Shown here: piece by piece, positions 1 through 23,117 of the stretch
How positions within the stretch are numbered: the stretch's first letter is position 1
How the letters are laid out: every line of letters begins with the position of its first letter
From: Rhizobium sp. Q54
GTDB taxonomy: Bacteria > Pseudomonadota > Alphaproteobacteria > CADEGL01
Assembly: GCA_945860095.1 (NCBI GenBank)
Contig: CAMAPP010000001.1
Coordinates: 3,741 to 67,740 of the forward strand
DNA: 64,000 bases
Direction of reading: 5' to 3'
The notes under the pieces: model-generated
The model's database searches: none
Seen by the model: only the letters and a program-made list of their open reading frames with translations
What the model was told of the DNA's origin: nothing
Position numbers and translations under genes: made by a program

Positions 1-2
1 AT

Positions 3-3218: not shown

Positions 3219-3226
3219 GCATCGAC

Positions 3227-4508: not shown

Positions 4509-5237
4509 ATGCGATCCGTTGGCGTCATCGTGGCCCGAGGTGGATCCAAGCGGATCCCGCGCAAGGTTTTGCGCCCGCTCGGCGGCATTCCCCTACTTGC
4601 CTGGATGTCAAAGGCCGCGCTTGCAAGCCGGCTTGACGCCGTCGTGCTATCGACCGACGACGCCGAGATCGCCGCGCTCGGCCGCGAACTCGGGCTGTCG
4701 GTGCCGTTTCTGCGCCCCGCGGAATTGGCGCAGGATTTCGTCCGCAATGACGACGTCGTTCTGCACGCCATAGACATGCTCGGTTCTTCCGATTCGCCCG
4801 GCGCCGATATCGCGGTTCTTTTGCAACCGACCGCGCCTTTCACGCTGCCCGGCGATATCGATGCCTGCCTCGATGCGATGGAGGAAGCCGAGATTGCTTG
4901 CTGTTTTACCGCGCGCAAGGCGACCGAGAGACCGGAATGGATGTTCGTGCCGGGCGATAAGGGCACGGTAAAATTGCTGTTGGGTGGCGAGCTGGTCGGC
5001 GACCGGCAGCACAGCCAGAAATTGACGACGTACTATGTGCCTTCGGGCGCGGTGTGGGCGACGCGCGCCGATACGCTTCGCCGCACGCGGAGCTTCTACG
5101 CGCCGCCTTTGCGTATCGTCGAAGTCGAAGAGCACCGCACCGCCGACATCGATGTGGAGGACGATCTGATCGTTGCCGAGGCCCTGCTTCGAGCCCACGC
5201 GCTGGCGCCGGTCGGCGCGGAGCGCGGTCGCCGATGA
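4509..5237 (+). CDS. Acylneuraminate cytidylyltransferase family (CMP-nonulosonic acid synthetase), copy 1
   Basis: The N-terminus reads VGVIVARGGSKRIPRKVL... and the size is about 240 aa, typical of NeuA/LegF/PseF. Confidence 0.75.
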   Translation: MRSVGVIVARGGSKRIPRKVLRPLGGIPLLAWMSKAALASRLDAVVLSTDDAEIAALGRELGLSVPFLRPAELAQDFVRNDDVVLHAIDMLGSSDSPGADIAVLLQPTAPFTLPGDIDACLDAMEEAEIACCFTARKATERPEWMFVPGDKGTVKLLLGGELVGDRQHSQKLTTYYVPSGAVWATRADTLRRTRSFYAPPLRIVEVEEHRTADIDVEDDLIVAEALLRAHALAPVGAERGRR

Positions 5238-6271
5238 CGCGCGTCAAAAATATGACGCCGTTGGTTTGCGGACCGCGCGCGACCATGCGCGAAGCCATCG
5301 AGCGCATCAATGCCAGCCCGTATCTGTTTCAGGTCGTCGTCGATTCCGCCGGCTTCGTCCAGGGTACGGTAACCGATGGCGATATCCGGCGCGCCATGCT
5401 GCGCGGTGTTTCGCTCGACGATGCGGTCGAGGAAGGCATGCATCGCAATCCCATCGTCGGTTCCACGTCGAATACCGAGGACAATCTTCGGTTGCTGCGC
5501 AGGACAAAATTTCTGCCCGTCGTCGACGATGCGGGACGACTGGATCATGTTCTGGTGGAGCGCACTCCCGCCGGGGGCATCGGCGCGGCGCTCGTGATGG
5601 CCGGCGGCTTCGGCACGCGCCTGGGTGACGCCACGCGCGGCACGCCCAAGCCCCTGCTCGATATCGGCGGCCGGCCGATGATCGACCGTGTGCTCGCCGG
5701 ACTCGAGGACGCGGGCGTGTCGCGCATCACGGTCGCGGTGCATTACCTCGCCGAACAGATCGAGGCTTTCCTCGACGCGCGCGGCGGACGGCCGCGAGTC
5801 TCCGTGATCCGCGAGAGCGAGCCCCTGGGCACGGCGGGCGCGCTCGGGCTCATCGACCTTCCGCCCGATCGACCGGTCTTCGTCGTCAACGGCGATCTGG
5901 TGACCGGGGTGGATTATGCCGCCATGCACGAGTTTCACGTGCGCCACGGCTTCGACGGCTCGGTCGCCGCCGCGCGTCACGAATTGACCATCCCGTACGG
6001 CGTACTGCGCTACGACGAGGACGGCCTCATCTCCGGCATCGACGAGAAGCCGACGCTGCACCACTTCGTCGCGGCGGGCATCTATTATCTCTCGCCCGAG
6101 ATCGTCGCGCTGGTCGCGCGCGGACGCCCCATCGACATGCCGGAACTTTTGGAAAGCGCACGGAAAATCGGCTTGCGTATCGGCGTCTTTCCGGTTCACG
6201 AGCATTGGCGCGATGTCGGAAGGCCGGGCGATCTGTCGGCCGCGCGTTCGGAATTCGACGGCGCGAAATAG
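5234..6271 (+). CDS. CBS-domain sugar-phosphate nucleotidyltransferase (PtmE-like)
   Basis: An N-terminal CBS pair is followed by a nucleotidyltransferase motif (LVMAGGFGTRLG...KPLL). The ATG overlaps the upstream stop (ATGA). Confidence 0.7.
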   Translation: MTRVKNMTPLVCGPRATMREAIERINASPYLFQVVVDSAGFVQGTVTDGDIRRAMLRGVSLDDAVEEGMHRNPIVGSTSNTEDNLRLLRRTKFLPVVDDAGRLDHVLVERTPAGGIGAALVMAGGFGTRLGDATRGTPKPLLDIGGRPMIDRVLAGLEDAGVSRITVAVHYLAEQIEAFLDARGGRPRVSVIRESEPLGTAGALGLIDLPPDRPVFVVNGDLVTGVDYAAMHEFHVRHGFDGSVAAARHELTIPYGVLRYDEDGLISGIDEKPTLHHFVAAGIYYLSPEIVALVARGRPIDMPELLESARKIGLRIGVFPVHEHWRDVGRPGDLSAARSEFDGAK

Positions 6272-6274
6272 CCC

Positions 6275-8053
6275 ATGGGGCAATTGTTCCACATGTTGAC
6301 GGCGGCGGAACGGACGCGGGGTCTCGTCGTGCTCGTCGTCCTCATCGCCATGGCCGCGGTCGAGGTCGTCGGCGTGGCGGCGATCGCGGCCTTCATCGCC
6401 CTTCTGACCAACCCCGGCGCGGCTTCGGGCAATCGCTGGCTACTGGAAATCGGCCGGCAGCTCGGATCCCAGGACGGCGCGGATCTATTGCTGCCCGCCG
6501 GTCTCGCACTATTCGCCGTGATCGTTTTCCGCAATTTTTATTCGGCCTTCGCCTCCTGGTCGCGGCTGTCCTATCTCCATCACTTGCGCAAGAGGTTGGC
6601 CACGCGCCTGCTCGCGAGTTATCTAGCCCAGCCCTACGCCTTCTTTCTGCGCGCCAATAGCGCGACCCTGGTCAAGAACCTGACCTTCGAGGTCAACCAG
6701 CTGGTCACGGCCTATCTTTATTCCTGGCTGGTGATCGCGGCCGACGCGCTGACGACCTTGGCCATCCTGGGGCTTCTGCTGTACCGCGACCCCGTCATCA
6801 CCGCGATCGCGGTCGGGGTCCTCGGCACCGTCGCCTTGGCGGTTCTTCTGGGTTCGCGGAGCCTCGTGCGCGCGCTCGGCACCCGGCACCGCGCGCTGAA
6901 CGACCGCCTGCACCGCACGGCCACCGAAGCCGTCTCGGGCATAAAGGAACTCAAGGTCCTGGGCCGCGAGCGGCATTTTCTTGACCGCTTCGCCTCGATT
7001 TCCGACCGCTTCGCCGGCACGACGGTGTCCTTCCAATTGTTCAACGAATTGCCGCGCTACGGGCTCGAGATCGTCGTCTTCGGCGGCATGTTGCTGATGG
7101 CCTGGCTGGTGGTCGAGCGCGCGGGCTCGGTGCTGCCCGTCGCCGAAACGCTGGCGCTGTTCGTCGTGGCCTTCTACCGGCTTTTGCCCATCACCCACCG
7201 CATTTTGTCGAGCGCCTCGGGGCTGTCGTTCAATCACGCTATCCTGGCCGATCTTTCGGGAAGCCTTCGCGCGGGTCACGGCGCCGCAGAGGCATTGGCG
7301 CCGATGTCGCAAGCCCTGCCGTTCGCGCGCGATATCGAGTTTCGGGGCGTGCACTTTCGCTACGACGGCGCGGTCGCGGATGCGCTCGGCGGCGTCGATC
7401 TCTTGGTTCCGAAGAACGCGACGATCGCCTTCGTCGGCCCCACGGGCGTGGGCAAGACGACCATCGTCGATCTGATGCTGGGCCTGCACCGGCCGACGGG
7501 CGGCGCCATTCTCGTGGACGGGGTCGAGATAGCGCCCAATCGCGTGCGCGCCTGGCAAGCCAATGTGGGTTACGTGCCGCAAGCGATCTATCTCGCCGAC
7601 GACACCATCCGGCGCAACATCGCCCTCGGCGTGCCGGACGCGGACATCGACGAGGCGCGCATCGCCGCGGCCGCGCGCATGGCCCAGCTCGATCGCTTCG
7701 TCGAGACCTTGCCGGACAAGTACGACGCCATGGTCGGCGAGCGCGGCGTGCGGCTTTCGGGCGGACAGCGCCAACGCATCGGCATCGCCCGGGCGCTTTA
7801 CGGCCAGGCCAATGTCCTAATCTTGGACGAAGCCACCAGCGCGCTCGACGGCATCACCGAGGCCGTGATCGAGGAATCCATCGCCGGCCTGCGCGGCCAA
7901 GCAACCGTGGTGATCATCGCGCACCGTTTGTCCACGGTTCGGCATTGCGACCGGATCTACCTGCTCGAGGCCGGGCGCGTGGTGGCAGCGGGCGGGTACG
8001 ACGAATTGATGCGCGACAATCAGACCTTCCGCGCCATGGCGCGCGCCGTTTGA
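6275..8053 (+). CDS. ABC transporter, fused permease/ATPase (MsbA/PglK-type exporter)
   Basis: An N-terminal multi-TM domain is followed by Walker A (GPTGVGKTT), the signature LSGGQRQRIGIARAL and Walker B (ILILDEATSALD). Confidence 0.85.
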   Translation: MGQLFHMLTAAERTRGLVVLVVLIAMAAVEVVGVAAIAAFIALLTNPGAASGNRWLLEIGRQLGSQDGADLLLPAGLALFAVIVFRNFYSAFASWSRLSYLHHLRKRLATRLLASYLAQPYAFFLRANSATLVKNLTFEVNQLVTAYLYSWLVIAADALTTLAILGLLLYRDPVITAIAVGVLGTVALAVLLGSRSLVRALGTRHRALNDRLHRTATEAVSGIKELKVLGRERHFLDRFASISDRFAGTTVSFQLFNELPRYGLEIVVFGGMLLMAWLVVERAGSVLPVAETLALFVVAFYRLLPITHRILSSASGLSFNHAILADLSGSLRAGHGAAEALAPMSQALPFARDIEFRGVHFRYDGAVADALGGVDLLVPKNATIAFVGPTGVGKTTIVDLMLGLHRPTGGAILVDGVEIAPNRVRAWQANVGYVPQAIYLADDTIRRNIALGVPDADIDEARIAAAARMAQLDRFVETLPDKYDAMVGERGVRLSGGQRQRIGIARALYGQANVLILDEATSALDGITEAVIEESIAGLRGQATVVIIAHRLSTVRHCDRIYLLEAGRVVAAGGYDELMRDNQTFRAMARAV

Positions 8054-9864
8054 TGGCCGAGCTCGTCCTATACACGCGCGCCGACGCCGCCCGGGCCGCG
8101 GCCAGGAAACCGCCGGAGGTCTCGGCCGTGCTCGGCCTGACGCCGAATGCGCGCGCGGCGGCGGCGGGGCTTGGATTGCCCATGATCGATCCGATGACGC
8201 GCTACGGCGATGTGCGCCAGGCGCGCGACGTGGCGCGCGTCGTGCGCGTCCGGCGCCGGATGCTGAAGGCGCTCGGTCCCATAAGCGCCGTGGAGCGCGA
8301 ACTTCTCATCGACCAGTTCAACCGCGTCGCCTATTCGGCGCTGCGGCTTTGGCACACATTGGGCGAAACAGGCCCGTGGCTGGTACCCGCAGAGAGCGGC
8401 TCGTTCGCCCTAATTTCCGCGCGCGAGGCGGCGCATGGCTGCCTGCTGGCCCACATCCTCGACCCCAAGGTCGCCGCCGAGACCGAAGCGGCGGCGATCC
8501 GCACCCCGCCCTTGCCCGCGCTCTACCGCGCGCTTCGCCGCCTCGCGCTTTGGCGCCATCCATCGAGCGATGTCCGTCTGGCGCTCGGCATGGCCAAGGA
8601 GCAGTTCGGTCTGTTCGAGGCCTTCGCGCGCCAGGGCAAGGCCGCGCGCACCCTGTTCGTCGGCCTGCCGCAGCGCGGCGCGTGGGAGTACGTGAAGCTC
8701 GCGCGCGAGGCTTTGCGCAATCTCCGCGCGAAGGGCCTCGTGCAAGTGAGCTTGGCGCCGTCGCGCGCCGGCACGGATGGCGGTCTTGCGGCGCGTGCCG
8801 CGGACGCGGTGGCGGACCGGGCGATTTCACCGGCCTTCGCGCGTTACGTGCCGCTCGTCGCGGCGAAACTCGGATACTTGGCATCGGCGCGCCTGGATGC
8901 ACGACGCGTGTTCGCCCAGGCCCGGCCCCACGCCTTCACCGCGGCCGAGATTTCCACCTTCGGCAATTGGATCGTGGCCGAGGCGGCCGGCGAGGCCGGC
9001 GTGCCGCGCATGGTCATGAGCCGCAACGCCCACACCGCGCCCGACCGTCCGCTCGCACGCGATTCGGCCATCGGATACTTGCGCGCGCGCTATCCACGGG
9101 ACCTGGTGGACCAACCCCTGTTCTGGTCGCCGGCCGGCGCGCGGGCGGGGGAATGCGCCCGGCGCCCCGGCGAATGGCCACGCATTCGCCCGCTCGTCGC
9201 GCGGCGCCCGGCACAGGGCTCCCGGCCTCCGCGCGCGGCGCCGTCCGTGGAACGCGTCGTCCTGTTGGCCGACACCTATGCCGCCTGGTGGTTTCCGCAT
9301 TCCTGGATTTTCCTGACGGGCGACGAATTCGTGGCCGCGGCGCGGGAACTAGCCGCCGCGATCGCACCGCTGGCGCACACGCGCCTCGTCATTCGCGCCA
9401 AGAAAAAGCCCAAATGCGATTTGGCGGCATTGACCGCGCTCGTCGATCCCAAGGGCAATTGCGCGATCAATACGCGCGAAGTGCCGTTCGAGGAAGATTT
9501 GGCGCGGGCGGACCTGCTGGTCGCCTTTCATTCGACCACCATCGAGGAAACCCTGATCGCGCGAAAGCCGGTCCTGCTGTGGGGCGGAACGGCGCGCCAC
9601 GAATATCTTGCCGCGCGCGAGGTTCGGCCCACGGCGCAGGACCGCGGCGCCGTCTATGGCGTGCGCCGGCCAGGGGCGCTTGGCCCCATGATCGCGGCCG
9701 TGCTCGACGCCCACCACGGCCGCCCGCTGTCGGACGACGAAGCCGCCCCTTACGCCTGGCCGCGCGACACCATGAATGTCGGCGATCTGGCCGTGGAGAT
9801 CGTGAACCGGGCAAGCGCGGGCGTTCCCCCGCGAGAAAAGGAGGCCTCCCTTGCCGCACGGTGA
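8053..9864 (+). CDS. Hypothetical protein with a Capsule_synth-like (KpsS/KpsC-type) C-terminal domain; putative glycosyl/ulosonic-acid transferase
   Basis: WWFPHS and LLVAFHSTTIEETLIARKPVLLWGG resemble the YYPLHQEPE and VVTICGTAGFESAVLGRPVIAFG motifs of the KpsS-like gene at the window start. The start overlaps the ABC gene stop (TGATG). Confidence 0.45.
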   Translation: MAELVLYTRADAARAAARKPPEVSAVLGLTPNARAAAAGLGLPMIDPMTRYGDVRQARDVARVVRVRRRMLKALGPISAVERELLIDQFNRVAYSALRLWHTLGETGPWLVPAESGSFALISAREAAHGCLLAHILDPKVAAETEAAAIRTPPLPALYRALRRLALWRHPSSDVRLALGMAKEQFGLFEAFARQGKAARTLFVGLPQRGAWEYVKLAREALRNLRAKGLVQVSLAPSRAGTDGGLAARAADAVADRAISPAFARYVPLVAAKLGYLASARLDARRVFAQARPHAFTAAEISTFGNWIVAEAAGEAGVPRMVMSRNAHTAPDRPLARDSAIGYLRARYPRDLVDQPLFWSPAGARAGECARRPGEWPRIRPLVARRPAQGSRPPRAAPSVERVVLLADTYAAWWFPHSWIFLTGDEFVAAARELAAAIAPLAHTRLVIRAKKKPKCDLAALTALVDPKGNCAINTREVPFEEDLARADLLVAFHSTTIEETLIARKPVLLWGGTARHEYLAAREVRPTAQDRGAVYGVRRPGALGPMIAAVLDAHHGRPLSDDEAAPYAWPRDTMNVGDLAVEIVNRASAGVPPREKEASLAAR

Positions 9865-10858
9865 TAATTCCGCCCCACGCAAGCGCGTCGGCCTTCTCGG
9901 AATCGGCCAAGCGGGCCTGCAACATGCCCGCGCCGTAGCCGCATGCGGGCATTTGGTCGCAAGCGCCGCCGCGAGCGGAACCACCTCCCCGCGCCTCGAA
10001 GCCTTCCGCCGCGCGGCACCGGACGCAAAGATCGTCATCGGCATCGATGCCTTGCTGGCCGATGACAGCCTGGACGCGATCATCGCGGCATTGCCTTGGG
10101 ACGTGGGCCCGCGCCATCTCGACGATCTTTTGCGCCACCCCAAGCCCGTCTTGCTGGAAAAGCCGATCGCACTCGACGCCGCATCGATCGCACGTGCCCT
10201 TTGCGCGCCCGGCGCCAAGTCCAAGAACAAGATGGTCGGCTTCAACCGGCGGTTCTACGGCACGTCGGCGCGCATGCGGGCGCGCTTGGCCGAGGGCGGC
10301 CTCAAGGCCGTGCGTGTGACGATTTCCGAGGACTTAACCAGGCAGGAACGCGCGCATGGCGCGGCGGTTCTCGGCCATCTGATGGCGTTTTCCTCATCCC
10401 ACGCCCTCGACCTCGTCCGCCATCTGCTGGGCGAGCTCAAGATCGTCCGGCTTTACGGCCATGCCGAGCGCGACGTGCCGTTTCTATCCATCAACGGCTT
10501 GCTGGAGACGCGCGACGGCGTACCGGTGCTGTTGACCCTCAATGCCAGCGATCCGAGCCCGGCCGGCATTTCCTTCGTCTTCGCCGACCGCACGACCTGG
10601 AATCTGTCGCCCCTCGAAATGCTGGCGGTCTTCGACCGCTACGAGGTGGTCGAGCTGCGGCCCGGCTCGCAAATCCGGCGCTACATGCCGCATCTGCGGG
10701 ACATGCACGACGAAACGGCCGATTTCAAACCGGGCTTCGTCCAACAGATGGCGGCCTTTCTGGCGGGCGATTTCGGACCTGGCGCCACACCGGAGGATGC
10801 CTTGGCCGTGCAGACCATGATCGAAGCGATGGCGCGCGCGGCGCACCCCGGCGCATGA
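9851..10858 (+). CDS. Gfo/Idh/MocA family oxidoreductase
   Basis: The N-terminal Rossmann segment (VGLLGIGQAG...) and the EKP motif are present. Confidence 0.65.
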   Translation: MPHGDNSAPRKRVGLLGIGQAGLQHARAVAACGHLVASAAASGTTSPRLEAFRRAAPDAKIVIGIDALLADDSLDAIIAALPWDVGPRHLDDLLRHPKPVLLEKPIALDAASIARALCAPGAKSKNKMVGFNRRFYGTSARMRARLAEGGLKAVRVTISEDLTRQERAHGAAVLGHLMAFSSSHALDLVRHLLGELKIVRLYGHAERDVPFLSINGLLETRDGVPVLLTLNASDPSPAGISFVFADRTTWNLSPLEMLAVFDRYEVVELRPGSQIRRYMPHLRDMHDETADFKPGFVQQMAAFLAGDFGPGATPEDALAVQTMIEAMARAAHPGA

Positions 10859-10886
10859 TCCAGCCCCAGCGGAGAAGGAAACCCTC

Positions 10887-11864: not shown

Positions 11865-11914
11865 TCCCGCGCCGACGCGACGCAGCGAAGTCCGGCAAGG
11901 ATGCTCGATTCCTA

Positions 11915-12190
11915 ATGGCAATGACGGCGCCAACCTTACCCAGCACCGGCCCGATCGCCCCCCGCCTCGGCGGCGAGTTGCCGGCGGGCGCGGACGGCGC
12001 GCCCACTGCGCCGTGGGCGCTGCCGGCGGACGTGCTTGCCTTCAGCCATGACCGCGCGGCCCTGTCATGGCTTCATGCGGCGCGCGGTCCGTTCCGGAGC
12101 GCGCTGCATGAAGCCTATACCTGTCCGAGCGTGCCGGAGAATATTATCGAAATTAATACCCATGGTGATGTCGGATTAATCCATGACTGA
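11915..12190 (+). pseudogene. Truncated 5' remnant of a DegT-like aminotransferase gene (paralogue of 12998..14077)
   Basis: The product ...LAFSHDRAALSWLHAARGPFRSALHEAYTCPSVPE... aligns with ...LYFSHGRAALRWIVGARGPFAGALVCAYTWPTVPD... of the intact gene. The remnant has high GC and ends exactly at the start of the low-GC acetyltransferase gene. Confidence 0.45.
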
Positions 12191-12893: not shown

Positions 12894-12997
12894 TAGGAAG
12901 CACGTACCGGCGATGTTTAGAGACATGCCCCGCTCGGATCTCTGCGTGACGGAGGATATTTTCCGCCGCCCAATCCGTCTCCCGAACAGCGCGGCGC

Positions 12998-14077: not shown

Positions 14078-14088
14078 GTGGTGATGCG

Positions 14089-15030: not shown

Positions 15031-15080
15031 GGCATGATGGTGACGTGTGCGGCTGCTGTTATCAACGGATATTGGCTCTG
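15031..15080. promoter_or_regulatory. Short divergent intergenic region between the epimerase (-) and NeuC copy 1 (+); likely divergent promoters
   Basis: Inferred only from the divergent gene arrangement. Confidence 0.2.
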
Positions 15081-17080: not shown

Positions 17081-18558
17081 CTCTGGCAGAGGCTAACGGC
17101 GGTATTCCGCTCACGTTGTACGGCGTGAGTCCGGAGGAGCTCGCCGAGGACGTCTATTACCGTCGAGACTTCTTCGAATTACATCGTGGCTCCGGTTTCA
17201 TCGATTGCATCGAGGGGCCCTCGTTTCATGCCGGCGCGGTCGTGCGCGCCATCGAGGGGACCGATCTGGAAGACCTAGAAACACCATGGGGCTATGGCGG
17301 TCCGATCGCGACCAGCCATGAACAGATGCGACAAGGCATGTGGCTGTGGCGTCAGCGCCAGCGTGAGGCCGGCCGAGTGGCTGAATTCGTGCGCCTGCAC
17401 CCATTCCTCAATCCACTGGCCGTCCACGATTACTATGCTGACATCAAGTTTGATCGTGTAACGATTGCCGTCGATCTATCGCTGCCACGCGAACAACGCC
17501 GTCGCGTCTATTCCGAAGGCACCAAGAACCGACTTCGCCGCGCGGCACGAAGCATGACAGTTGTGAGACTCGGAATCGAACACGCCGAAGATTTTCGGCG
17601 CTGCTACGAAACCGGACTAGACCGCAATAACGCGCTCTCTGCCTATTATTTTGGCGATGACTATTATGAGAAAATTCTCGCGTCGCCTTGGGCGACGTGC
17701 CTTGGCGGGCAATTGGATGGCGAGATTGTATCGATTGCGTGTTTCCTCCATACGGGAATATTTTGCCACTACCATCTGTCCGGTTCGACGTCGGACGGAC
17801 GCGCTAAGTTTGCACACTATCTTCTACTTGATCATGCATTTGATTATTTTTCGGAAAAAGGCGCGCGCCTCATGCATCTCGGCGGCGGCCGGACGGAACG
17901 GCCAGACGATGCGCTGCTGGAGTTCAAGAAGAAGTTTTCCCGTTGGCGCCTAGCGTTCTACACGGCCGGTGCCATCTATGACCCCGAAGCCTATGCCCAG
18001 CTTTCGACTGGGGACACGCGGCGCTTCTTGAACTATCGGTTTAGCCTCACCCCTCGTGATGAGGTCGGCGATGTGGTCTTGCGCAAAGCAACGATTCAAG
18101 ACCTCACCTCCTATTTTCAATTGAAATGCGATGTCTCAAATATTTTTTGGTCTGGACATGTGTCACCGCCGGACTGGCGTCATTTAAGTGCCTGGTATAC
18201 CGCTTTATTCAACGAAAATATGAAGCGCGAAGTCTTTATCGCTGAGATGCATTCACGGGTCATCGGCTACGCGTATCTCGACGACAAGAATGATCATCTC
18301 GAGTCGACATTGGGGGTCGCGGCATCGGAGTCAAACCGCGCACGCGGCCGCCATCTACTTATGGAGATGGTCAAGATATTGCGAGAGCGAAACGAAACAC
18401 GTTCGGTGGAAGCGTGGATTTTTAAGGAGAACATCGCGTCCGTGAAGGCACACGAGGCAGCGGGTTTTGTTTTGGATTCGAGCCGACCGACAAGATCGTC
18501 CAATATGCCTTTCGTTAAAAACGGTAATATTCAAAGTTGCTGGGTGTGGAGGGTTTAG
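17074..18558 (+). CDS. FemAB-like (Acetyltransf_6/aminoacyl-transferase fold) domain fused to a C-terminal GNAT acetyltransferase domain
   Basis: The N-terminal roughly 340 aa resemble FemAB/peptidoglycan-bridge-type transferases. The C-terminal part is a classic GNAT (VIGYAYLD ... RARGRHLLMEMV ... AAGF). The start is taken as a GTG overlapping the SDR stop; track entry 17005 is probably over-extended. Confidence 0.55.
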   Translation: MVTLAEANGGIPLTLYGVSPEELAEDVYYRRDFFELHRGSGFIDCIEGPSFHAGAVVRAIEGTDLEDLETPWGYGGPIATSHEQMRQGMWLWRQRQREAGRVAEFVRLHPFLNPLAVHDYYADIKFDRVTIAVDLSLPREQRRRVYSEGTKNRLRRAARSMTVVRLGIEHAEDFRRCYETGLDRNNALSAYYFGDDYYEKILASPWATCLGGQLDGEIVSIACFLHTGIFCHYHLSGSTSDGRAKFAHYLLLDHAFDYFSEKGARLMHLGGGRTERPDDALLEFKKKFSRWRLAFYTAGAIYDPEAYAQLSTGDTRRFLNYRFSLTPRDEVGDVVLRKATIQDLTSYFQLKCDVSNIFWSGHVSPPDWRHLSAWYTALFNENMKREVFIAEMHSRVIGYAYLDDKNDHLESTLGVAASESNRARGRHLLMEMVKILRERNETRSVEAWIFKENIASVKAHEAAGFVLDSSRPTRSSNMPFVKNGNIQSCWVWRV

Positions 18559-18559
18559 C

Positions 18560-19732
18560 GTGGGATTGTCTCGCAAGAAAGTATGCGTAGTCACCGGCAC
18601 ACGCGCCGAGTTTGGTCTGCTTCGTCCGGTCATGGCGCTTCTCAAGAAGGATTCGGCTTTTGACCTTCAGGTCATCGCCTCGGCCATGCATCTGGTGCCG
18701 GAATTCGGATTGACGTACCGCGAAATCGAAGCGGCGGGATTTGATATCGATGCAAAGGTAGAGATGCTGATCGCCGGCGACACGCCTGCGGCCGCGGCAA
18801 AGTCGATGGGAATCGGCACCATGGGCTTCGCTGATGCATTTTCTCGACTTGAACCCGATATGATCATGCTATTGGGCGATCGATTCGAGGCGCTCGCCGC
18901 CGCTTCGACCGCGACGGTCATGGGCATTCCCATCATCCATTTGGTGGGGGGCGACGTTACCGAAGGCGCCTTCGACGATGCCATTCGGCACGCGATTACA
19001 AAGATGTCCCATCTGCACTTTGTGGCCTCGAAGGAATCAGGTGGCCGAGTCCGGCAAATGGGTGAGGAGCCGTTTCGTGTGCATGTCGTGGGCGATCCTG
19101 GACTCGATGGTCTGCGGCAGATGACATTGATTGGTCGGAAAGCCCTGGAACGAGATATCGGATTTCGGTTTCGTCACAAGAATCTCGTTGTCACCTTTCA
19201 CCCAGCGACGCTCGATCGTATTCCGTCGACCAAGCAGTTCGCCACCGTGTTGGATGCGCTCGACAGCCTTGGTCCGGATTTTGGCCTTATCTTCACTAAA
19301 CCGAACGCCGATCCGCAAGGGCGGGCGCTCATCGTCATGCTCGATGCGTTTGTTCGGGATCACCCGAATTCGGCTGCTTTCGTGTCTTTAGGGCAGCGCC
19401 GCTATCTAAGCGTCATGGCGCAATGTGACGCAGTCGTCGGCAATTCGTCGTCAGGGCTCTTAGAGGCGCCGTCGTTGGGCATACCCACGATCAACATAGG
19501 AAGCCGCCAGAATGGCCGTCTGAAGGCGAAGACGGTTTATGATTGTTCTGTGGACAAGGCGGGGATAGTTAGGGCGCTTCGCAAAGCCCTGAGCGGGCGT
19601 ATTGGAAAGGTGGATAATCCACATGGAGATGGCCATACGGCGCCTCGAATCATACGCATACTGAAAAAGGTACGCGATCCAAAGAGCCTATTGCGCAAAT
19701 CCTTCCATAACCTCAATCGATCCCTTGTCTGA
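18560..19732 (+). CDS. UDP/GDP-N-acetylglucosamine 2-epimerase (hydrolysing), NeuC/LegG family, copy 2
   Basis: Shares roughly 50-55% identity with copy 1 (VTGTRAEFGLLRPV, HLVGGDVTEGAFDDAIRHAITKMSHLHF, GNSSSGLLEAPS). GTG start. Confidence 0.8.
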   Translation: MGLSRKKVCVVTGTRAEFGLLRPVMALLKKDSAFDLQVIASAMHLVPEFGLTYREIEAAGFDIDAKVEMLIAGDTPAAAAKSMGIGTMGFADAFSRLEPDMIMLLGDRFEALAAASTATVMGIPIIHLVGGDVTEGAFDDAIRHAITKMSHLHFVASKESGGRVRQMGEEPFRVHVVGDPGLDGLRQMTLIGRKALERDIGFRFRHKNLVVTFHPATLDRIPSTKQFATVLDALDSLGPDFGLIFTKPNADPQGRALIVMLDAFVRDHPNSAAFVSLGQRRYLSVMAQCDAVVGNSSSGLLEAPSLGIPTINIGSRQNGRLKAKTVYDCSVDKAGIVRALRKALSGRIGKVDNPHGDGHTAPRIIRILKKVRDPKSLLRKSFHNLNRSLV

Positions 19733-20804
19733 CCGGGTTTACATCATCGCGGAGGCGGGGGTGAACCATAACGGTTCGCTCGATATGGCGCTTCGGTTGA
19801 TAGATTGCGCCGCTGAGGCTGCCGCGGATGCGGTGAAATTTCAGACGTTCAAGGCCGAAAAGGTGGTGACCGCCGCCGCACCTAGGGCGGCGTATCAAAT
19901 TGCGAATGTGGGCGAGGATGGCTCGCAGATCGAATTGATTCGGAATTTGCAACTTGATGAATCGGATTTTTATAAACTCGCCGCTCATGCAGCCGCGTGC
20001 AATATCGAATTCATGTCCACGCCCTTCGACCTCGAATCATTGCAATTTCTCGTGCACGAAATTGGCATCCGCCGGCTTAAAATTCCCTCTGGCGAAATCA
20101 CCAACATCTTCTTATTGCTAGGTGCGGCGCGATCGAAGCTTCCACTAATTGTCTCGACGGGCATGTGCACGCTCGACGACATCGAAGCGGCCTTGGACGT
20201 GCTTGCCTTTGGCCTCGTCCAGCCCAATGTCGCGCCTTCCGCAAATCGTATTTGGGGCGCTTCCACCAGCGCGGCCGGCCGTGCCGCCTTGATGGAAAAG
20301 GTGACGTTGCTCCACTGCACTACGGAGTATCCAAGTCCGGTGGAAGATACAAATTTGCGCGCAATGCAGACCATGCGCGATAAATTCAACCTTCCGGTTG
20401 GTTATTCTGACCACACCAGTGGCATCGCAATTCCTGTTGCCGCGGCAGCTCTGGGCGCAACTGTGATCGAAAAGCATTTCACTCTTGATCGCTCACTGCC
20501 GGGCCCGGACCACCCCGCCTCTCTGGAACCTACTGAATTGAAGTCGATGGTTCAATTCGTGCGCAAATCGGCTGCGGCATTAGGGCGGTCTGAAAAATTA
20601 CCAGCGCCTTCCGAACTTAAAAACATTCCGATTGCACGGCGCAGCCTAGTCGCCGCGCGCTCGATTCGGCACGGGGAAACGCTTGACCTGTCGATGCTCG
20701 ACGCAAAGCGCCCTGGTACGGGCCTGTCGCCAATGCGCATATTTGACATCGTCGGGACCAAGGCTAAGCGTGATTACGCTCCAGATGAGGCGATTGAATC
20801 GTGA
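19725..20804 (+). CDS. N-acetylneuraminate synthase family (NeuB/LegI/PseI-type nonulosonic acid synthase)
   Basis: The N-terminus YIIAEAGVNHNGS, the conserved core and a C-terminal SAF-like domain are present. Confidence 0.85.
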   Translation: MSDRVYIIAEAGVNHNGSLDMALRLIDCAAEAAADAVKFQTFKAEKVVTAAAPRAAYQIANVGEDGSQIELIRNLQLDESDFYKLAAHAAACNIEFMSTPFDLESLQFLVHEIGIRRLKIPSGEITNIFLLLGAARSKLPLIVSTGMCTLDDIEAALDVLAFGLVQPNVAPSANRIWGASTSAAGRAALMEKVTLLHCTTEYPSPVEDTNLRAMQTMRDKFNLPVGYSDHTSGIAIPVAAAALGATVIEKHFTLDRSLPGPDHPASLEPTELKSMVQFVRKSAAALGRSEKLPAPSELKNIPIARRSLVAARSIRHGETLDLSMLDAKRPGTGLSPMRIFDIVGTKAKRDYAPDEAIES

Positions 20805-21451
20805 GCAGGCCGGTCATTATCGTCGGCGGCGGAGGCCACGCCCACGTGATTATCGACGCGCTTACCCGCGGTGGCATCTCAGTGATCGGAATTTGCGATC
20901 CGGCCCTGTCGAAGGGTTCGTTAGGGCCGCTAGGCGTTTTGGTTCTTGGCAACGATAGTGCCCTGTCCGGCTATCCACCATCGGATGTCGATCTTGTGAA
21001 TGGCGTGGGATCGACCTCTTCAACGGATTCCCATAGACAGGTGTTCGAAGTCTTCAGCCGACGCGGCTACCGCTTTGTGTCGGTCGTGCATCCGAGTGCG
21101 ATCATTGCACGTGACGTAAGAGTAGAAGAGGGCGGTCAATTGATGGCGGGGGTTGTGGTCCAGGCCGGGACGGTCATTGGCCGCAATACGATTGTCAATA
21201 CTGGCTCCTGCATCGACCACAATTGTCGGCTCGGTGACCATGTACACGTAGCGCCGGGCGTGACGCTGTCCGGGGGCGTGACTGTTGGGTCGAACACGCA
21301 CATAGGAGTTGGTGCTTCGATTATTCAATCGGTCATCATCGGTGAACACTGTCTAATTGGAGCGGGCACCGTCGTGCTAACTAATGTCGATGATGGCTGT
21401 CGTATCGTAACGCCCCCGAGTCGAACGCTCATCGAGCGACCGGCAAAGTAA
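20801..21451 (+). CDS. NeuD/PglD-family sugar N/O-acyltransferase (hexapeptide)
   Basis: A Rossmann-like N-terminus (IIVGGGGHA) precedes left-handed beta-helix repeats. It overlaps the upstream stop. Confidence 0.8.
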   Translation: MSRPVIIVGGGGHAHVIIDALTRGGISVIGICDPALSKGSLGPLGVLVLGNDSALSGYPPSDVDLVNGVGSTSSTDSHRQVFEVFSRRGYRFVSVVHPSAIIARDVRVEEGGQLMAGVVVQAGTVIGRNTIVNTGSCIDHNCRLGDHVHVAPGVTLSGGVTVGSNTHIGVGASIIQSVIIGEHCLIGAGTVVLTNVDDGCRIVTPPSRTLIERPAK

Positions 21452-21473
21452 CATAGGCCTGAATTCTCCTCAT

Positions 21474-22400
21474 ATGGCCCGTACACTTGTTGTCGGATAC
21501 GGCTCGATCGGCGAACGCCATGGTCGTCTCCTTGCGGAGCTTGGACACGAAGTGGCGGTAGTCAGCCGCCGCGCCATTTCGCATTCATCGAAGTTTAGCG
21601 CAGTGGCCGACGCAATGCGGGCAATCAAACCTGAATACGTCGTAATTGCGAACGAGACTTCCGCGCATCGCTCGACCGTTGCTGCCCTCGTAGCCTGCAA
21701 TTTTTCCGGAATAATCCTTATCGAAAAGCCGCTCTTCGAGTGCACTAGCAGTAGGGATGCAACCGACCGAGCAAACACTTATGTGGGTTATGCTCTTCGT
21801 TTTCACCCATTGATGGTTCAGTTGCGAGAATGGGTACGGACGAGAAGAGTAGTCTCGGCGTCAATTCATGTAGGGCAGAATTTGTCGAGGTGGCGCCCCG
21901 GCCGGGATCTCCGTGATTCCTATTCAGCGCAACCAGCGCTTGGGGGCGGCGTGTTGCGTGACCTAAGTCACGAGTTGGACTATGCGATCTGGTTGTTCGG
22001 CGCATGGCGACGCGTTGCAGCGATCGGCGGAGCAAGCGGTGTACTTGGTATCGAAGCGGATGATCATTGGAGCATCGTGGCGGAGTTCGATCGCTGTCCA
22101 CAGGTAAGCATGACGCTTAGCTATCTCGACGAGCCACCGCGGCGTCAGATCGTGGTCAATACGGACTCTGGGACAGCGTCCGTCGACTTGCTGCGTGGAT
22201 CATTCCAGACCAGTGAGCAACCGGAGCCTGATCGCATTCGCGTTGACCGTGACGAACTCTATCGCCAGCAGCACAAAGTGATCCTATCCGGCTGTCCCGG
22301 GCAGGCATGCACGTATGGCGAAGGCCTTGCTGTCGTCTTATTCATCGAAGCGATCGAAAGTGCTGCCCGAACAGGATTCTGGATCGCTGGTTATCGATAA
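21474..22400 (+). CDS. Gfo/Idh/MocA family oxidoreductase (PtmF-like)
   Basis: The N-terminal Rossmann segment (LVVGYGSIGERH) and the EKP motif are present. Confidence 0.7.
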   Translation: MARTLVVGYGSIGERHGRLLAELGHEVAVVSRRAISHSSKFSAVADAMRAIKPEYVVIANETSAHRSTVAALVACNFSGIILIEKPLFECTSSRDATDRANTYVGYALRFHPLMVQLREWVRTRRVVSASIHVGQNLSRWRPGRDLRDSYSAQPALGGGVLRDLSHELDYAIWLFGAWRRVAAIGGASGVLGIEADDHWSIVAEFDRCPQVSMTLSYLDEPPRRQIVVNTDSGTASVDLLRGSFQTSEQPEPDRIRVDRDELYRQQHKVILSGCPGQACTYGEGLAVVLFIEAIESAARTGFWIAGYR

Positions 22401-23117
22401 ATGAAGCGAATTTGCACAATCTGCGCGCGGGGGGGGTCCAAAGGTCTTCCCGGCAAGAACCTTCGGAAGCTTCTTGGAAAATCCCTCATCGCGCATTCCG
22501 TTGAGCACGCGCGCGCGACCGGCTTATTTGATGCCATCGCCGTGAGTAGCGACGACGACGACATTTTGCTGGCTGCGCGACAAGCAGACGTCGATCACCT
22601 GGTCAAACGCCCGTCCCATCTTGCCAACGATGTAGCTGCCAAGATGCCGACAATTCAGCACTGCGTGCGCGCAGTAGAAGAGAAATTAAATCAACAGTTC
22701 GATGTTATGGTCGATTTAGATGCCACTGCTCCATTGCGGCTTCCGGAGGATATCACGGGTGCCGTGGCGATGTTGGAGGCTGGCGGCTGCGACAATGTCA
22801 TTACCGGCAGTGAGGCGCACCGATCGCCGTATTTTAATCTTGTGGAGATGGGCAGAGATGGCTTCGTGAACCTGTCGAAGCCGGGTGGAGGGCTCGTTCG
22901 CCGGCAGGATTCACCCAAATGCTACGACTGCAATGCATCAATATACGTCTGGCCGCGCGCGACCTTTTTCGTGGCAGCGTTCGCCATTATGCCACGCACG
23001 AAGCTCTATGAAATGCCTCGCGGACGTTCACTCGATATCGACAACGAACTAGATTTTGAGATTGTCGAATTCCTCATGCGTCGCGCCGAGTTTGTGGACA
23101 GAGGATTGCGGAAATGA
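22401..23117 (+). CDS. Acylneuraminate cytidylyltransferase family (CMP-nonulosonic acid synthetase), copy 2
   Basis: The N-terminus reads ICTICARGGSKGLPGKNL... with the canonical length. Confidence 0.8.
   Translation: MKRICTICARGGSKGLPGKNLRKLLGKSLIAHSVEHARATGLFDAIAVSSDDDDILLAARQADVDHLVKRPSHLANDVAAKMPTIQHCVRAVEEKLNQQFDVMVDLDATAPLRLPEDITGAVAMLEAGGCDNVITGSEAHRSPYFNLVEMGRDGFVNLSKPGGGLVRRQDSPKCYDCNASIYVWPRATFFVAAFAIMPRTKLYEMPRGRSLDIDNELDFEIVEFLMRRAEFVDRGLRK

What the first reader, a model, noticed from the sequence alone, without database searches (positions are those of the whole stretch)
4509..23117. Legionaminic-acid-type (GDP-dependent) nonulosonic acid pathway in a high-GC alphaproteobacterial-like glycan locus
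The window encodes a NeuB-family synthase, two NeuC-family hydrolysing 2-epimerases, two CMP-NulO synthetases, a CBS-domain nucleotidyltransferase, an SDR, a Gfo/Idh/MocA oxidoreductase, a NeuD/PglD-like acetyltransferase, a DegT-like aminotransferase and an epimerase/dehydratase. NeuC-type enzymes and a PtmE-like CBS-nucleotidyltransferase characterise the Campylobacter GDP-linked legionaminic acid route (PtmE, LegG, LegI, LegF, LegH, LegB, LegC, PtmA, PtmF). The pseudaminic acid route uses PseG instead, so this is more likely a Leg-type sugar.
Basis: partly seen in the sequence, partly recalled or inferred. Interest (0 to 1): 0.55.

Follow-up and report, generated by a model that had tools for sequence, protein, structure and literature searches.

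The report
Legionaminic-acid sugar pathway, mosaic gene cluster
This stretch encodes a fairly ordinary bacterial pathway for a legionaminic-acid-type (sialic-acid-like) surface sugar, patched together by gene transfer in an uncultured alphaproteobacterium, with two key early enzymes encoded just outside the window.

Summary
The gene inventory is real. Window 4509-23117 holds one NeuB-family synthase, two NeuC-type hydrolysing 2-epimerases, two CMP-sugar synthetases, a CBS+nucleotidyltransferase (PtmE/LegX-like), a NeuD/PglD-type acetyltransferase, two Gfo/Idh/MocA oxidoreductases and an SDR.

The Leg-type reading holds:
- The synthase, epimerases, acetyltransferase and synthetases are 39-59% identical to enzymes in clusters that carry curated LegB and LegC equivalogs. 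They are only 25-42% identical to the E. coli K1 Neu5Ac enzymes.
- No Pse equivalog reaches its cut-off.

Corrections:
- The in-span "DegT-like" gene (13001-14077) is a divergent DegT-fold protein, not LegC.
- The in-span epimerase/dehydratase (14089-15030, minus strand) is not LegB.
- The cassette's own LegC has been deleted. Only its last 35 codons remain (12901-13005), identically in five independent assemblies.
- A LegB-family dehydratase and a LegC-like aminotransferase lie about 6-8 kb upstream of the window on the same contig.
- The core NulO genes sit in a lower-GC island (~12.1-24.7 kb) that replaced part of a native high-GC locus.

GDP-dependence is inferred from PtmE plus LegB and was not shown. 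Leg cannot be told apart from 8-epi-Leg. This is a new member of a known kind, of low to moderate interest.

The parts
1..962 (+). 3' part of a 501-aa unknown protein whose start lies upstream of the window. It gives a weak Capsule_synth-like match and is a possible glycosyltransferase.
   Evidence: Homologues sit next to CMP-synthetase/PtmE genes in L012 and L013.
1783..2583 (+). HisF/WbuZ-like cyclase subunit, part of the acetamidino (amidotransferase) trio.
   Evidence: HisF 278 bits, WbuZ 258 bits.
2580..3218 (+). HisH/WbuY-like glutaminase subunit.
   Evidence: TIGR01855 183 bits against a cut-off of 105.
3227..4483 (+). WbuX-family N-acetyl sugar amidotransferase. It probably converts an N-acetyl group to an acetamidino group.
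   Evidence: TIGR03573 357 bits against a cut-off of 203.
4509..5237 (+). CMP-nonulosonate synthetase, type 1, in the native high-GC part.
   Evidence: It is 39% identical to the LegF-position gene of the Desulfuromonas LegB/LegC cluster and 26% identical to E. coli K1 NeuA.
5234..6271 (+). PtmE/LegX-like CBS + nucleotidyltransferase, the presumed GlcN-1-P guanylyltransferase.
   Evidence: It is 34-39% identical to the PtmE-position genes of L009 and L010 and 86% identical to an Alphaproteobacteria MAG.
6275..8053 (+). PglK/MsbA-type ABC exporter (fused permease and ATPase).
   Evidence: It is syntenic in L006, L008 and L011.
8053..9864 (+). 603-aa protein of unknown family, conserved next to the exporter.
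   Evidence: no family match. Homologues occur in L006, L008 and L011.
9851..10858 (+). Gfo/Idh/MocA oxidoreductase 1.
10887..11864 (+). Radical SAM / SPASM-twitch protein. Its role as a tailoring enzyme is unknown.
   Evidence: It is 65% identical to the gene at the same position in L006.
11915..12190 (+). Truncated high-GC copy of the N-terminus of the DegT-fold gene. It marks the left junction of the low-GC island.
   Evidence: 47% identity over 75 aa. GC drops at about 12.1 kb. The sequence is identical in five assemblies.
12183..12893 (+). Hexapeptide-repeat acyl/acetyltransferase.
12901..13005 (+). Remnant of a deleted LegC aminotransferase gene: the last 35 codons, with no start codon.
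   Evidence: 60% identity to the C-terminus of L006 LegC. Relatives carry a full LegC here. The sequence is identical in five assemblies.
13001..14077 (+). Divergent DegT-fold, PLP-type protein ('DegT2') with an invariant Lys168. It is not LegC.
14089..15030 (-). Extended-SDR epimerase/reductase. It is not a LegB equivalog.
   Evidence: Pfam Epimerase 99 bits; TIGR04180 23 bits against a cut-off of 475.
15081..16244 (+). Hydrolysing NDP-sugar 2-epimerase, copy 1 (LegG/NeuC type).
16250..17080 (+). Classical SDR, PtmA/ElaC-like.
   Evidence: It is 53-59% identical to the SDR that follows the CMP-synthetase in L010 and L008.
17080..18558 (+). FemAB-like (Acetyltransf_6) + GNAT fusion, a presumed N-acyl/aminoacyl tailoring enzyme.
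   Evidence: It is conserved in L006 and L008.
18560..19732 (+). Hydrolysing NDP-sugar 2-epimerase, copy 2 (LegG/NeuC type).
   Evidence: (PDB 5zlr, 312 bits).
19725..20804 (+). Nonulosonate synthase (LegI/NeuB family).
20801..21451 (+). NeuD/PglD-family N-acetyltransferase (LegH-like).
21474..22400 (+). Gfo/Idh/MocA oxidoreductase 2, PtmF/ElaA-like.
   Evidence: It is 47% identical to the L010 gene between PtmE and LegF.
22401..23117 (+). CMP-nonulosonate synthetase, type 2 (LegF/ElaB-like).
23114..24694 (+). 526-aa GT-B-fold protein of an unannotated family, always found downstream of the CMP-synthetase. It is the candidate nonulosonate transferase and the last gene of the low-GC island.
   Evidence: GC rises at about 24.7 kb.

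Best explanation
The region is the core of a CMP-legionaminic-acid-family biosynthesis and transfer module. It lies inside a surface-polysaccharide locus that runs from at least 8 kb upstream of the window to about 48.5 kb, in an uncultured high-GC alphaproteobacterium.

Proposed route (every step is inferred from homology; none was assayed):
1. The PtmE/LegX-like enzyme (5234-6271) makes GDP-GlcN from GlcN-1-P and GTP. This is then N-acetylated.
2. A LegB-family 4,6-dehydratase and a LegC-like aminotransferase, both encoded about 6-8 kb upstream of window position 1, give GDP-4-amino-4,6-dideoxy-GlcNAc.
3. The PglD/LegH-like acetyltransferase (20801-21451) acetylates N4.
4. A NeuC/LegG-type hydrolysing 2-epimerase (15081-16244 and/or 18560-19732) releases 2,4-diacetamido-2,4,6-trideoxymannose.
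5. The NeuB/LegI-type synthase (19725-20804) condenses this with PEP.
6. A CMP-synthetase (22401-23117 and/or 4509-5237) activates the product.

Tailoring genes probably decorate or epimerise it: the Gfo2 + SDR pair, WbuX/HisH/HisF, FemAB-like/GNAT, DegT2, and the radical SAM + Gfo1 pair. The GT-B protein (23114-24694) is the likely transferase and the ABC protein (6275-8053) the likely exporter.

The module is a mosaic. A lower-GC cassette (~12.1-24.7 kb) replaced the native right-hand half. It left a truncated native gene at its left junction and then lost its own LegC by deletion.
For: Family calls are all well above cut-offs.

Orthology by context:
- Window NeuB is 59% identical (400-405 bits) to the synthases of the Desulfuromonas carbonis and Rubricoccus marinus clusters.
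- Those clusters carry curated LegB (535 and 534 bits against 475) and LegC (552 and 544 bits against 420) equivalogs, plus NeuC, PglD-like, CBS-NTP-transferase, Gfo, CMP-synthetase and SDR genes.
- E. coli K1 Neu5Ac enzymes are far more distant: NeuB 42%, NeuC 32%, NeuD 25%, NeuA 26-27%.
- NeuC2's best solved relative is the GDP/UDP-diNAcBac hydrolysing 2-epimerase (312 bits), against 207 bits for GNE and 29 bits for N. meningitidis SiaA.

Synteny: the loci of Rhodospirillaceae KN72, L006 and the contig carrying P0002 (86% identical NeuB) carry a true LegC (520 and 506 bits in KN72 and L006) exactly where the window has a 35-codon LegC stub.

Upstream of the window, on the same contig:
- The N-terminal 218 aa of a dehydratase score 328.6 bits on TIGR04180 over model positions 1-195 of 297, and are 60-62% identical to LegBs.
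- A 373-aa DegT has LegC as its best family (354 bits).

Literature: PtmE is GTP-specific, and LegB of C. jejuni and T. forsythia accepts only GDP-GlcNAc (PMC5378307). LegX/PtmE is required for Leg in an alphaproteobacterium (preprint). The same gene set makes Leg in Plesiomonas (PMC4481668).

Mosaic structure: GC steps at 12.1 and 24.7 kb, the truncated paralogue, and a junction that is 100% identical in five assemblies.
Against: - No LegB or LegC equivalog lies inside the finding's span or anywhere in the 64-kb window.
- The upstream aminotransferase is below the LegC cut-off (354 against 420 bits), and the upstream LegB is seen only in part.
- No characterised LegI, LegG, LegF or PtmE sequence could be fetched. 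'Leg cluster' labels for the comparison loci rest on curated HMMs and gene content, not on chemistry.
- A PglF-type UDP-GlcNAc dehydratase (46570-48534) in the same locus could feed a UDP-linked route.
- The Gfo/CMP-synthetase/SDR trio is the same family set as ElaABC, which makes 8-epi-Leg (PMC13656337).
- Loss of the cassette's LegC shows some decay.
Confidence: 0.75

Rival explanations
1. The product is an epimer or heavily tailored relative of Leg, such as 8-epi-legionaminic acid, rather than Leg itself. After CMP activation, the Gfo/Idh/MocA enzyme (21474-22400) would oxidise C8 and the SDR (16250-17080) would reduce it from the other face, as proposed for ElaA/ElaC in A. baumannii KL49.
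For: The same three families are adjacent or nearby here. In the relatives L008 and L010 they are arranged Gfo - CMP-synthetase - SDR. PMC13656337 assigns that trio to CMP-Leg5,7Ac2 synthesis and C8 epimerisation.
Against: C. jejuni and Plesiomonas carry the same trio (PtmF/LegF/PtmA) and make Leg itself (PMC4481668). Orthology to ElaA/ElaC could not be tested: the structures are not in the PDB copy and the supplement is not held.
Confidence: 0.3
2. The pathway is UDP-linked, as in Legionella pneumophila. The membrane-bound PglF-type dehydratase (46570-48534), a DegT aminotransferase and a PglD-type acetyltransferase would make UDP-diNAcBac, which the NeuC-type enzymes hydrolyse. The PtmE-like gene would serve another sugar.
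For: A PglF/CapD-type dehydratase is present in the window. PglD_N-type and other acetyltransferases and a DegT at 32072-33289 are present. The closest solved epimerase is annotated as accepting both GDP- and UDP-diNAcBac.
Against: A LegB-family dehydratase lies on the same contig, and characterised LegBs take only GDP-GlcNAc (PMC5378307). PtmE-type genes co-occur with LegB/LegC in the comparison clusters. The DegT at 32072-33289 belongs to a conserved Gfo-acetyltransferase-DegT trio of the WbpB/D/E type.
Confidence: 0.15
3. It is a classical sialic acid (Neu5Ac) pathway, using NeuC, NeuB, NeuA and NeuD only. This would explain why no LegB or LegC is needed inside the window.
For: NCBIfam names the synthase 'N-acetylneuraminate synthase' (TIGR03569), and public annotations do the same. 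No LegB or LegC is present in the window.
Against: All four enzymes are far closer to those of LegB/LegC clusters than to the E. coli K1 NeuB/C/A/D or to N. meningitidis NeuB (131 bits) and SiaA (29 bits). A LegC stub remains inside the cassette. PtmE-, PtmF- and PtmA-type genes are present. LegB and a LegC-like gene lie upstream.
Confidence: 0.05
4. The cassette is a decaying, non-functional remnant. Loss of LegC broke the pathway and the remaining genes are drifting.
For: LegC is deleted to 35 codons, and a second truncated gene sits at the junction.
Against: All other genes are full-length, with full-model HMM coverage. The arrangement is identical in five independent assemblies from different samples, which indicates a successful population. 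A LegC-like gene and a LegB gene lie nearby on the same contig.
Confidence: 0.07

Closest known systems
Campylobacter jejuni CMP-legionaminic acid pathway (PtmE, PtmF, PtmA, LegB, LegC, LegH, LegG, LegI, LegF; Schoenhofen et al. 2009, as summarised in PMC5378307 and PMC4481668)
   Same: The same enzyme families are all present: CBS-NTP-transferase, Gfo/Idh/MocA, SDR, NeuD/PglD acetyltransferase, NeuC-type hydrolysing epimerase, NeuB-type synthase and CMP-synthetase. LegB-family and LegC-like genes lie on the same contig.
   Different: - LegB and the LegC-like gene lie outside the core cluster, and the cassette's own LegC is deleted.
- The epimerase, the CMP-synthetase and the Gfo gene are each duplicated.
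- There are extra genes: DegT2, FemAB-like/GNAT, radical SAM, WbuX/HisH/HisF and an ABC exporter.
- The setting is a polysaccharide locus rather than a flagellin glycosylation island.
Brevundimonas subvibrioides Leg pathway with LegX (PtmE orthologue) (bioRxiv 10.1101/2022.03.25.485807)
   Same: It is alphaproteobacterial, its Leg genes are scattered over several loci, and a CBS+NTP-transferase serves as a marker of, and is required for, Leg synthesis.
   Different: There the target is flagellin, through FlmG. Here the neighbours are polysaccharide genes (WecA-like, GT4s, ABC exporter). No sequence comparison was possible.
Acinetobacter baumannii KL49 / Vibrio vulnificus lga + elaABC module for 8-epi-legionaminic acid (PMC13656337)
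   Same: Both combine a Gfo/Idh/MocA enzyme, a CMP-synthetase and an SDR with Leg core genes in a capsule/O-antigen locus acquired by horizontal transfer. The A. baumannii LegG-type epimerase (PDB 5zlr) is the best solved match of NeuC2 (312 bits).
   Different: In the window the SDR is separated from the Gfo/CMP-synthetase pair. Orthology to ElaA/ElaC is untested.
LegB-LegC-LegG-LegI-LegH-PtmE-LegF clusters of Desulfuromonas carbonis (L009) and Rubricoccus marinus (L010)
   Same: These are the closest comparable clusters with curated LegB/LegC equivalogs. Identities to the window genes: synthase 59%, epimerase 46-50%, LegH 46%, PtmE 34-39%, CMP-synthetase 39-54%, Gfo 47%, SDR 53%.
   Different: They are compact and contiguous. 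They lack DegT2, the FemAB-like/GNAT fusion, the radical SAM gene and the 526-aa GT-B protein. Their products are also uncharacterised.

Membership tests
Legionaminic acid pathway (GDP-linked, C. jejuni type) | NeuB-family synthase grouping with synthases of Leg clusters rather than with Neu5Ac or Pse synthases | tested here: met
   59% identity (400-405 bits) to the synthases of clusters with curated LegB/LegC, against 42% (288 bits) to E. coli K1 NeuB. N. meningitidis NeuB scores 131 bits and C. jejuni PseI 159 bits. PseI model: 251 bits against a cut-off of 340. No characterised LegI was available for comparison.
Legionaminic acid pathway (GDP-linked, C. jejuni type) | Hydrolysing NDP-sugar 2-epimerase (LegG/NeuC type) instead of PseG | tested here: met
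   TIGR03568 scores 421 and 447 bits against 236. The non-hydrolysing WecB model scores only 95 and 80 bits. Best PDB match is the GDP/UDP-diNAcBac 2-epimerase. No scanned protein matched PseG.
Legionaminic acid pathway (GDP-linked, C. jejuni type) | LegB-family NAD-dependent 4,6-dehydratase (TIGR04180, cut-off 475) within the window | tested here: not met
   The minus-strand gene at 14089-15030 scores 23 bits, and the PglF-like gene at 46570-48534 scores 51 bits. tblastn with two LegBs finds only these weak matches.
Legionaminic acid pathway (GDP-linked, C. jejuni type) | LegB-family dehydratase elsewhere on the source contig | tested here: inconclusive
   Only the N-terminal 218 aa of a 344-aa protein could be read, 7.6-8.2 kb upstream of the window. 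They score 328.6 bits over model positions 1-195 of 297 and are 60-62% identical to LegB equivalogs. A full-length score could not be obtained.
Legionaminic acid pathway (GDP-linked, C. jejuni type) | LegC-family aminotransferase (TIGR04181, cut-off 420) | tested here: inconclusive
   In the window only a 35-codon stub remains (12901-13005). The DegT at 32072-33289 scores 178 bits. The upstream 373-aa DegT has LegC as its best family, but at 354 bits, below the cut-off. Syntenic relatives have true LegC at 506-520 bits.
Legionaminic acid pathway (GDP-linked, C. jejuni type) | N4-acetyltransferase of the NeuD/PglD family (LegH) | tested here: met
   TIGR03570 scores 205 bits against 161, with a PglD_N domain. 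It is 46% identical to the LegH-position gene of L009 and 25% identical to E. coli NeuD.
Legionaminic acid pathway (GDP-linked, C. jejuni type) | PtmE/LegX: CBS pair + nucleotidyltransferase | tested here: met
   CBS (33 bits) and NTP_transferase (97 bits) are found in one 345-aa protein. It is 34-39% identical to the genes at the PtmE position in the LegB/LegC clusters.
Legionaminic acid pathway (GDP-linked, C. jejuni type) | GTP specificity of PtmE and GDP-linked intermediates | not testable with these tools
   Enzyme assays are needed. The claim is inferred from characterised PtmE and LegB (PMC5378307).
Legionaminic acid pathway (GDP-linked, C. jejuni type) | Product is 5,7-diamino-3,5,7,9-tetradeoxy-D-glycero-D-galacto-nonulosonic acid | not testable with these tools
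   Chemistry is required. 8-epi-Leg cannot be excluded.
Sialic acid (Neu5Ac) pathway NeuC/NeuB/NeuA | Synthase, epimerase and synthetase nearest to those of Neu5Ac producers | tested here: not met
   Identity to E. coli K1 NeuB, NeuC, NeuA and NeuD is 42%, 32%, 26-27% and 25%. In every case this is far below the identity to the Leg-cluster enzymes.
Pseudaminic acid pathway PseB/C/H/G/I/F | Curated equivalogs PseB, PseC, PseH, PseG, PseI, PseF at or above cut-off | tested here: not met
   PseI scores 251 against 340. PseF scores 133 and 110 against 206. PseC scores 224 against 424. PseB scores 188 against 408. PseH scores 30 against 93. PseG gave no match.
8-epi-legionaminic acid module (ElaA/ElaB/ElaC) | Gfo/Idh/MocA + CMP-synthetase + SDR acting on CMP-Leg | tested here: inconclusive
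   All three families are present. Orthology to ElaA/ElaC could not be tested because no sequences or structures were reachable.

The most novel reading that the evidence does not exclude
The conserved accessory set seen here and in a few other alphaproteobacterial genomes encodes a previously undescribed, N-acylated or otherwise modified legionaminic-acid derivative and its dedicated transferase. The set comprises a rare divergent DegT-fold protein that is always next to LegC, a FemAB-like/GNAT fusion, a radical-SAM/SPASM enzyme with a Gfo partner, WbuX/HisH/HisF, and an unannotated 526-aa GT-B protein. The GT-B protein would found a new family of nonulosonate glycosyltransferases.
Probability: 0.3. 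Interest if true: 0.45.

Novelty: new member of a known kind. Interest (0 to 1): 0.25.

Why it matters
Legionaminic acids are bacterial sialic-acid mimics on capsules, LPS and flagella. Their clusters are already known from Campylobacter, Legionella, Acinetobacter, Vibrio, Tannerella and Brevundimonas, among others. This locus adds an environmental alphaproteobacterial example.

Its main practical lesson concerns annotation. The curated name 'N-acetylneuraminate synthase' hides a Leg-type enzyme. The obvious in-cluster 'aminotransferase' and 'dehydratase' are not the pathway's LegC and LegB.

The mosaic structure (cassette replacement followed by deletion of the redundant LegC) is a tidy example of how glycan loci diversify. 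The accessory genes of unknown function, especially the GT-B protein and the DegT-fold protein, are reasonable targets for finding Leg transferases and new Leg modifications, about which little is known.

Tried and rejected
- PDB sequence search with NeuB did not discriminate: the matches scored only 71-173 bits and there is no LegI structure.
- PDB searches for the Gfo2 and SDR proteins did not reach the ElaA/ElaC structures. The FEBS Letters supplement with Ela alignments is not held.
- The V. vulnificus Leg5Ac7AcAla paper (PMC6295735) is not held. The idea that the FemAB-like/GNAT fusion makes an N-acetyl-aminoacyl Leg is therefore untested.
- The closest relative, the contig carrying P0002 (86% identical NeuB), has gene calls but no DNA. 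The full LegC at that position could only be inferred from its Pfam label and from L006 and L008.
- Direct sequence searches of DegT2 against Pfam, NCBIfam, PDB and the window's own DegT gave nothing. A family alignment plus AlphaFold and Foldseek was needed to place it.
- I considered a pathway without a dehydratase, in which the Gfo or radical-SAM enzyme plus an aminotransferase would replace LegB. I dropped it once a LegB-family gene was found upstream.
- I considered an assembly artefact as the cause of the LegC stub. I rejected it because five independent assemblies are identical across the junction.
- The 603-aa and 526-aa unknown proteins share only a short C-terminal motif. No relationship is claimed.
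- The genome-contig scan with PtmE returned mostly distant nucleotidyltransferases. Only L011, L012 and L013 were informative.

Full report
**Observation.**
Six-frame ORFs with codon-position GC and HMM scans give a co-directional gene row across the finding's span:
- 4509-5237: CMP-sugar synthetase (CTP_transf_3).
- 5234-6271: CBS + NTP_transferase.
- 6275-8053: PglK/MsbA-type ABC exporter.
- 8053-9864: 603-aa protein with no family match.
- 9851-10858: Gfo/Idh/MocA oxidoreductase.
- 10887-11864: radical SAM/SPASM protein.
- 12183-12893: hexapeptide acetyltransferase.
- 13001-14077: protein with no direct family match.
- 14089-15030 (minus strand): extended-SDR epimerase.
- 15081-16244: NeuC (TIGR03568, 421 bits).
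- 16250-17080: classical SDR.
- 17080-18558: FemAB-like + GNAT fusion.
- 18560-19732: second NeuC (447 bits).
- 19725-20804: NeuB (TIGR03569, 454 bits against a cut-off of 400).
- 20801-21451: NeuD/PglD-family acetyltransferase.
- 21474-22400: Gfo/Idh/MocA oxidoreductase.
- 22401-23117: second CMP-sugar synthetase.

The two NeuC copies are 55% identical and the two synthetases 30% identical. It omitted one Gfo gene and several other genes.

**The 'DegT-like' and 'epimerase/dehydratase' genes are not LegC and LegB.**
- The 13001-14077 protein matches nothing in Pfam, NCBIfam, the PDB or the window's own DegT.
- An exhaustive search found a small family: 321 representatives at E<=0.001 among 1.84 billion proteins. 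In an alignment of 70 members, Lys168 is invariant and 19 members match PF01041.
- An AlphaFold model (pLDDT 94) matches only DegT-type sugar aminotransferases in the PDB.
- So the protein has a DegT fold. In every related locus, however, it sits next to a genuine LegC rather than replacing it.
- The minus-strand SDR scores 23 bits on the LegB model against a cut-off of 475.

**Which nonulosonic acid.**
The HMM libraries do not separate LegI from NeuB, so I labelled homologues by their gene context.
- NeuB homologues that are 58-59% identical to the window's NeuB, in Desulfuromonas carbonis (L009) and Rubricoccus marinus (L010), sit in compact clusters.
- In those clusters the first two genes pass the curated LegB (535 and 534 bits against 475) and LegC (552 and 544 bits against 420) models.
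- Those genes are followed by NeuC, NeuB, a PglD-like gene, a CBS-NTP-transferase, a Gfo gene, a CMP-synthetase and an SDR.
- As a Neu5Ac control I fetched the E. coli K1 (UTI89) neuDBAC genes.

BLASTP results:

| Window protein | Leg-cluster enzyme | E. coli K1 enzyme |
|---|---|---|
| NeuB | 59% (400-405 bits) | 42% (288 bits) |
| NeuC1 / NeuC2 | 46-50% | 32% |
| PglD-like acetyltransferase | 46% | 25% |
| CMP-synthetases | 54% and 39% | 26-27% |

- NeuC2's best solved relative is the A. baumannii GDP/UDP-N,N'-diacetylbacillosamine hydrolysing 2-epimerase (312 bits). Human GNE scores 207 bits and N. meningitidis SiaA 29 bits.
- No Pse equivalog reaches its cut-off, and no PseG was found.
The Leg-family reading stands.

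**The missing early steps, and a deletion.**
- Syntenic relatives share the following order: PtmE - ABC - ~600-aa unknown - (methyltransferase, or Gfo + radical SAM) - LegC - DegT-fold protein - FemAB/GNAT - NeuC - NeuB - acetyltransferase (a formyltransferase-family gene in L006) - Gfo - CMP-synthetase - (SDR) - ~530-aa unknown. These relatives are Rhodospirillaceae bacterium KN72 (L008), L006, and the contig carrying P0002, whose NeuB is 86% identical.
- Their DegT gene is a true LegC (520 and 506 bits in L008 and L006).
- In the window, tblastn with these LegCs finds only residues 361-395 of L006 LegC, at 12901-13005. This is 60% identical, lies directly after the stop codon of the hexapeptide acetyltransferase, and has no start codon. 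The cassette's LegC has been deleted.
- Just upstream, 11915-12190 encodes a truncated, high-GC copy of the N-terminus of the DegT-fold protein (47% identity).
- GC content falls from about 65-70% to about 48-58% at ~12.1 kb and rises again at ~24.7 kb. A lower-GC cassette therefore replaced the right half of a native module by recombination inside that gene.
- The 1.3-kb junction region is 100% identical in five independent assemblies from other samples. This is biology, not misassembly.

**Outside the window.**
- The source contig (ENA ERZ27280287, 109 kb) could be read 8.2 kb further left. Window position 1 corresponds to L060 position 8219.
- This stretch holds the N-terminal 218 residues of a 344-aa dehydratase. 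They score 328.6 bits on the LegB model over positions 1-195 of 297 and are 60-62% identical to the LegBs of L009 and L010.
- It also holds a 373-aa DegT whose best family is LegC, at 354 bits, below the cut-off of 420.
- Both genes are high-GC, that is, native. They plausibly supply the two steps that the cassette lacks, which would explain why the cassette's LegC was dispensable.
- The same stretch encodes APS kinase, ATP sulfurylase and a pyruvate kinase.

**GDP or UDP.**
- For GDP: the window has a PtmE/LegX-type gene and the contig has a LegB-family dehydratase.
- Characterised PtmE is GTP-specific, and characterised LegBs (C. jejuni, T. forsythia) accept only GDP-GlcNAc (PMC5378307).
- LegX is genetically required for Leg in the alphaproteobacterium Brevundimonas subvibrioides and is proposed as a bioinformatic marker (preprint 10.1101/2022.03.25.485807).
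- For UDP: the locus also has a PglF-type UDP-GlcNAc dehydratase at 46570-48534, and the closest solved epimerase is annotated as taking either nucleotide.
- I rate the GDP route at about 0.65-0.7. It is inferred, not shown.

**Leg or an epimer.**
- The Gfo (21474-22400), CMP-synthetase (22401-23117) and SDR (16250-17080) belong to the same families as C. jejuni PtmF/LegF/PtmA. Plesiomonas carries them in a proven Leg cluster (PMC4481668).
- They also belong to the same families as A. baumannii ElaA/ElaB/ElaC, which are assigned to C8 epimerisation of CMP-Leg5,7Ac2 (PMC13656337).
- I could not obtain Ela sequences, so Leg and 8-epi-Leg remain unresolved.

**Tailoring, transfer and export (all inferred).**
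- WbuX/HisH/HisF at 1783-4483 are the usual acetamidino-forming trio.
- The FemAB-like/GNAT fusion, the DegT-fold protein and the radical SAM + Gfo pair are conserved accessories of unknown role.
- The ABC protein resembles PglK/MsbA-type lipid-linked glycan exporters.
- Further downstream, up to about 48.5 kb, the locus continues with a methyltransferase, AsnB-like amidotransferases, a WbpB/D/E-like trio, GT4 glycosyltransferases, a FabH-like enzyme, a WecA-like initiating transferase and the PglF-like dehydratase. Housekeeping genes follow from purH.

**Host.**
The high-GC backbone genes (PtmE, ABC, 603-aa protein) are 86-95% identical to a contig of an Alphaproteobacteria MAG (L011). Locus architecture is shared with Rhodospirillaceae bacterium KN72.

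**Verdict.**
- This is a Leg-family pathway of a known type, a new member rather than a new kind.
- Points of note: a mosaic origin, a deleted LegC, LegB and a LegC-like gene encoded outside the core cluster, and a set of conserved accessory genes whose functions are unknown.
- Interest is low to moderate.

Noticed in passing
window ~12100-24700: A lower-GC island (about 48-60% GC against 62-70% in the flanks) carries the NeuC/NeuB/acetyltransferase/Gfo/CMP-synthetase core. Its left junction cuts a native paralogue of the DegT-fold gene. This looks like an allelic cassette replacement within a conserved glycan locus.
   Followed up: yes
window 12901-13005: A 35-codon remnant of a LegC aminotransferase gene lies between the hexapeptide acetyltransferase and the DegT-fold gene. 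The sequence is identical in five independent metagenome assemblies.
   Followed up: yes
window 13001-14077: A member of a rare, unannotated family of DegT-fold proteins (321 representatives among 1.84 billion) with an invariant lysine. It is always adjacent to LegC in related loci. Its function is unknown.
   Followed up: partly
window 23114-24694: A 526-aa protein with no Pfam match but a confident GT-B-fold model. Some relatives carry a Pfam match to PF27859 (LIC12162), faint in the one case where a mark was given. It is conserved directly downstream of the CMP-synthetase and is the candidate nonulosonate transferase.
   Followed up: partly
window 8053-9864, and 1-962: Two further conserved proteins of unknown family accompany the PtmE/CMP-synthetase/ABC genes in several alphaproteobacterial loci: a 603-aa protein, and the C-terminal part of a 501-aa protein with a weak Capsule_synth match. 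They may be additional transferases or polymerases.
   Followed up: no
L060 4642-7687 (about 0.5-3.6 kb upstream of window position 1): APS kinase, ATP sulfurylase and a pyruvate kinase are embedded in the glycan locus. This suggests local PAPS supply (a sulfated glycan) and perhaps PEP supply. The KN72 relative has sulfotransferase-like genes in its locus.
   Followed up: no
window 30583-33289: A Gfo/Idh/MocA - hexapeptide acetyltransferase - DegT trio of the WbpB/WbpD/WbpE type, with a VimE-like protein at 28563-29864. This points to a 2,3-diacetamido-2,3-dideoxy sugar in the same glycan. The DegT is 68% identical to the KN72 gene at the same position.
   Followed up: partly
window 37077-38033: A FabH-like beta-ketoacyl-ACP synthase III lies among glycosyltransferases, which may indicate acylation of the glycan.
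   Followed up: no
window 26725-28566 and 40236-42131: Two asparagine-synthase-type amidotransferases lie in the locus. The second is close to the XrtA/PEP-CTERM-associated type (494 bits, below its cut-off).
   Followed up: no
window 51460-56274 (minus strand) and 57263-57337 (minus strand): A 1604-aa NAD-specific glutamate dehydrogenase and a tRNA-Gly(GCC) lie in the housekeeping region to the right of the glycan locus.
   Followed up: no
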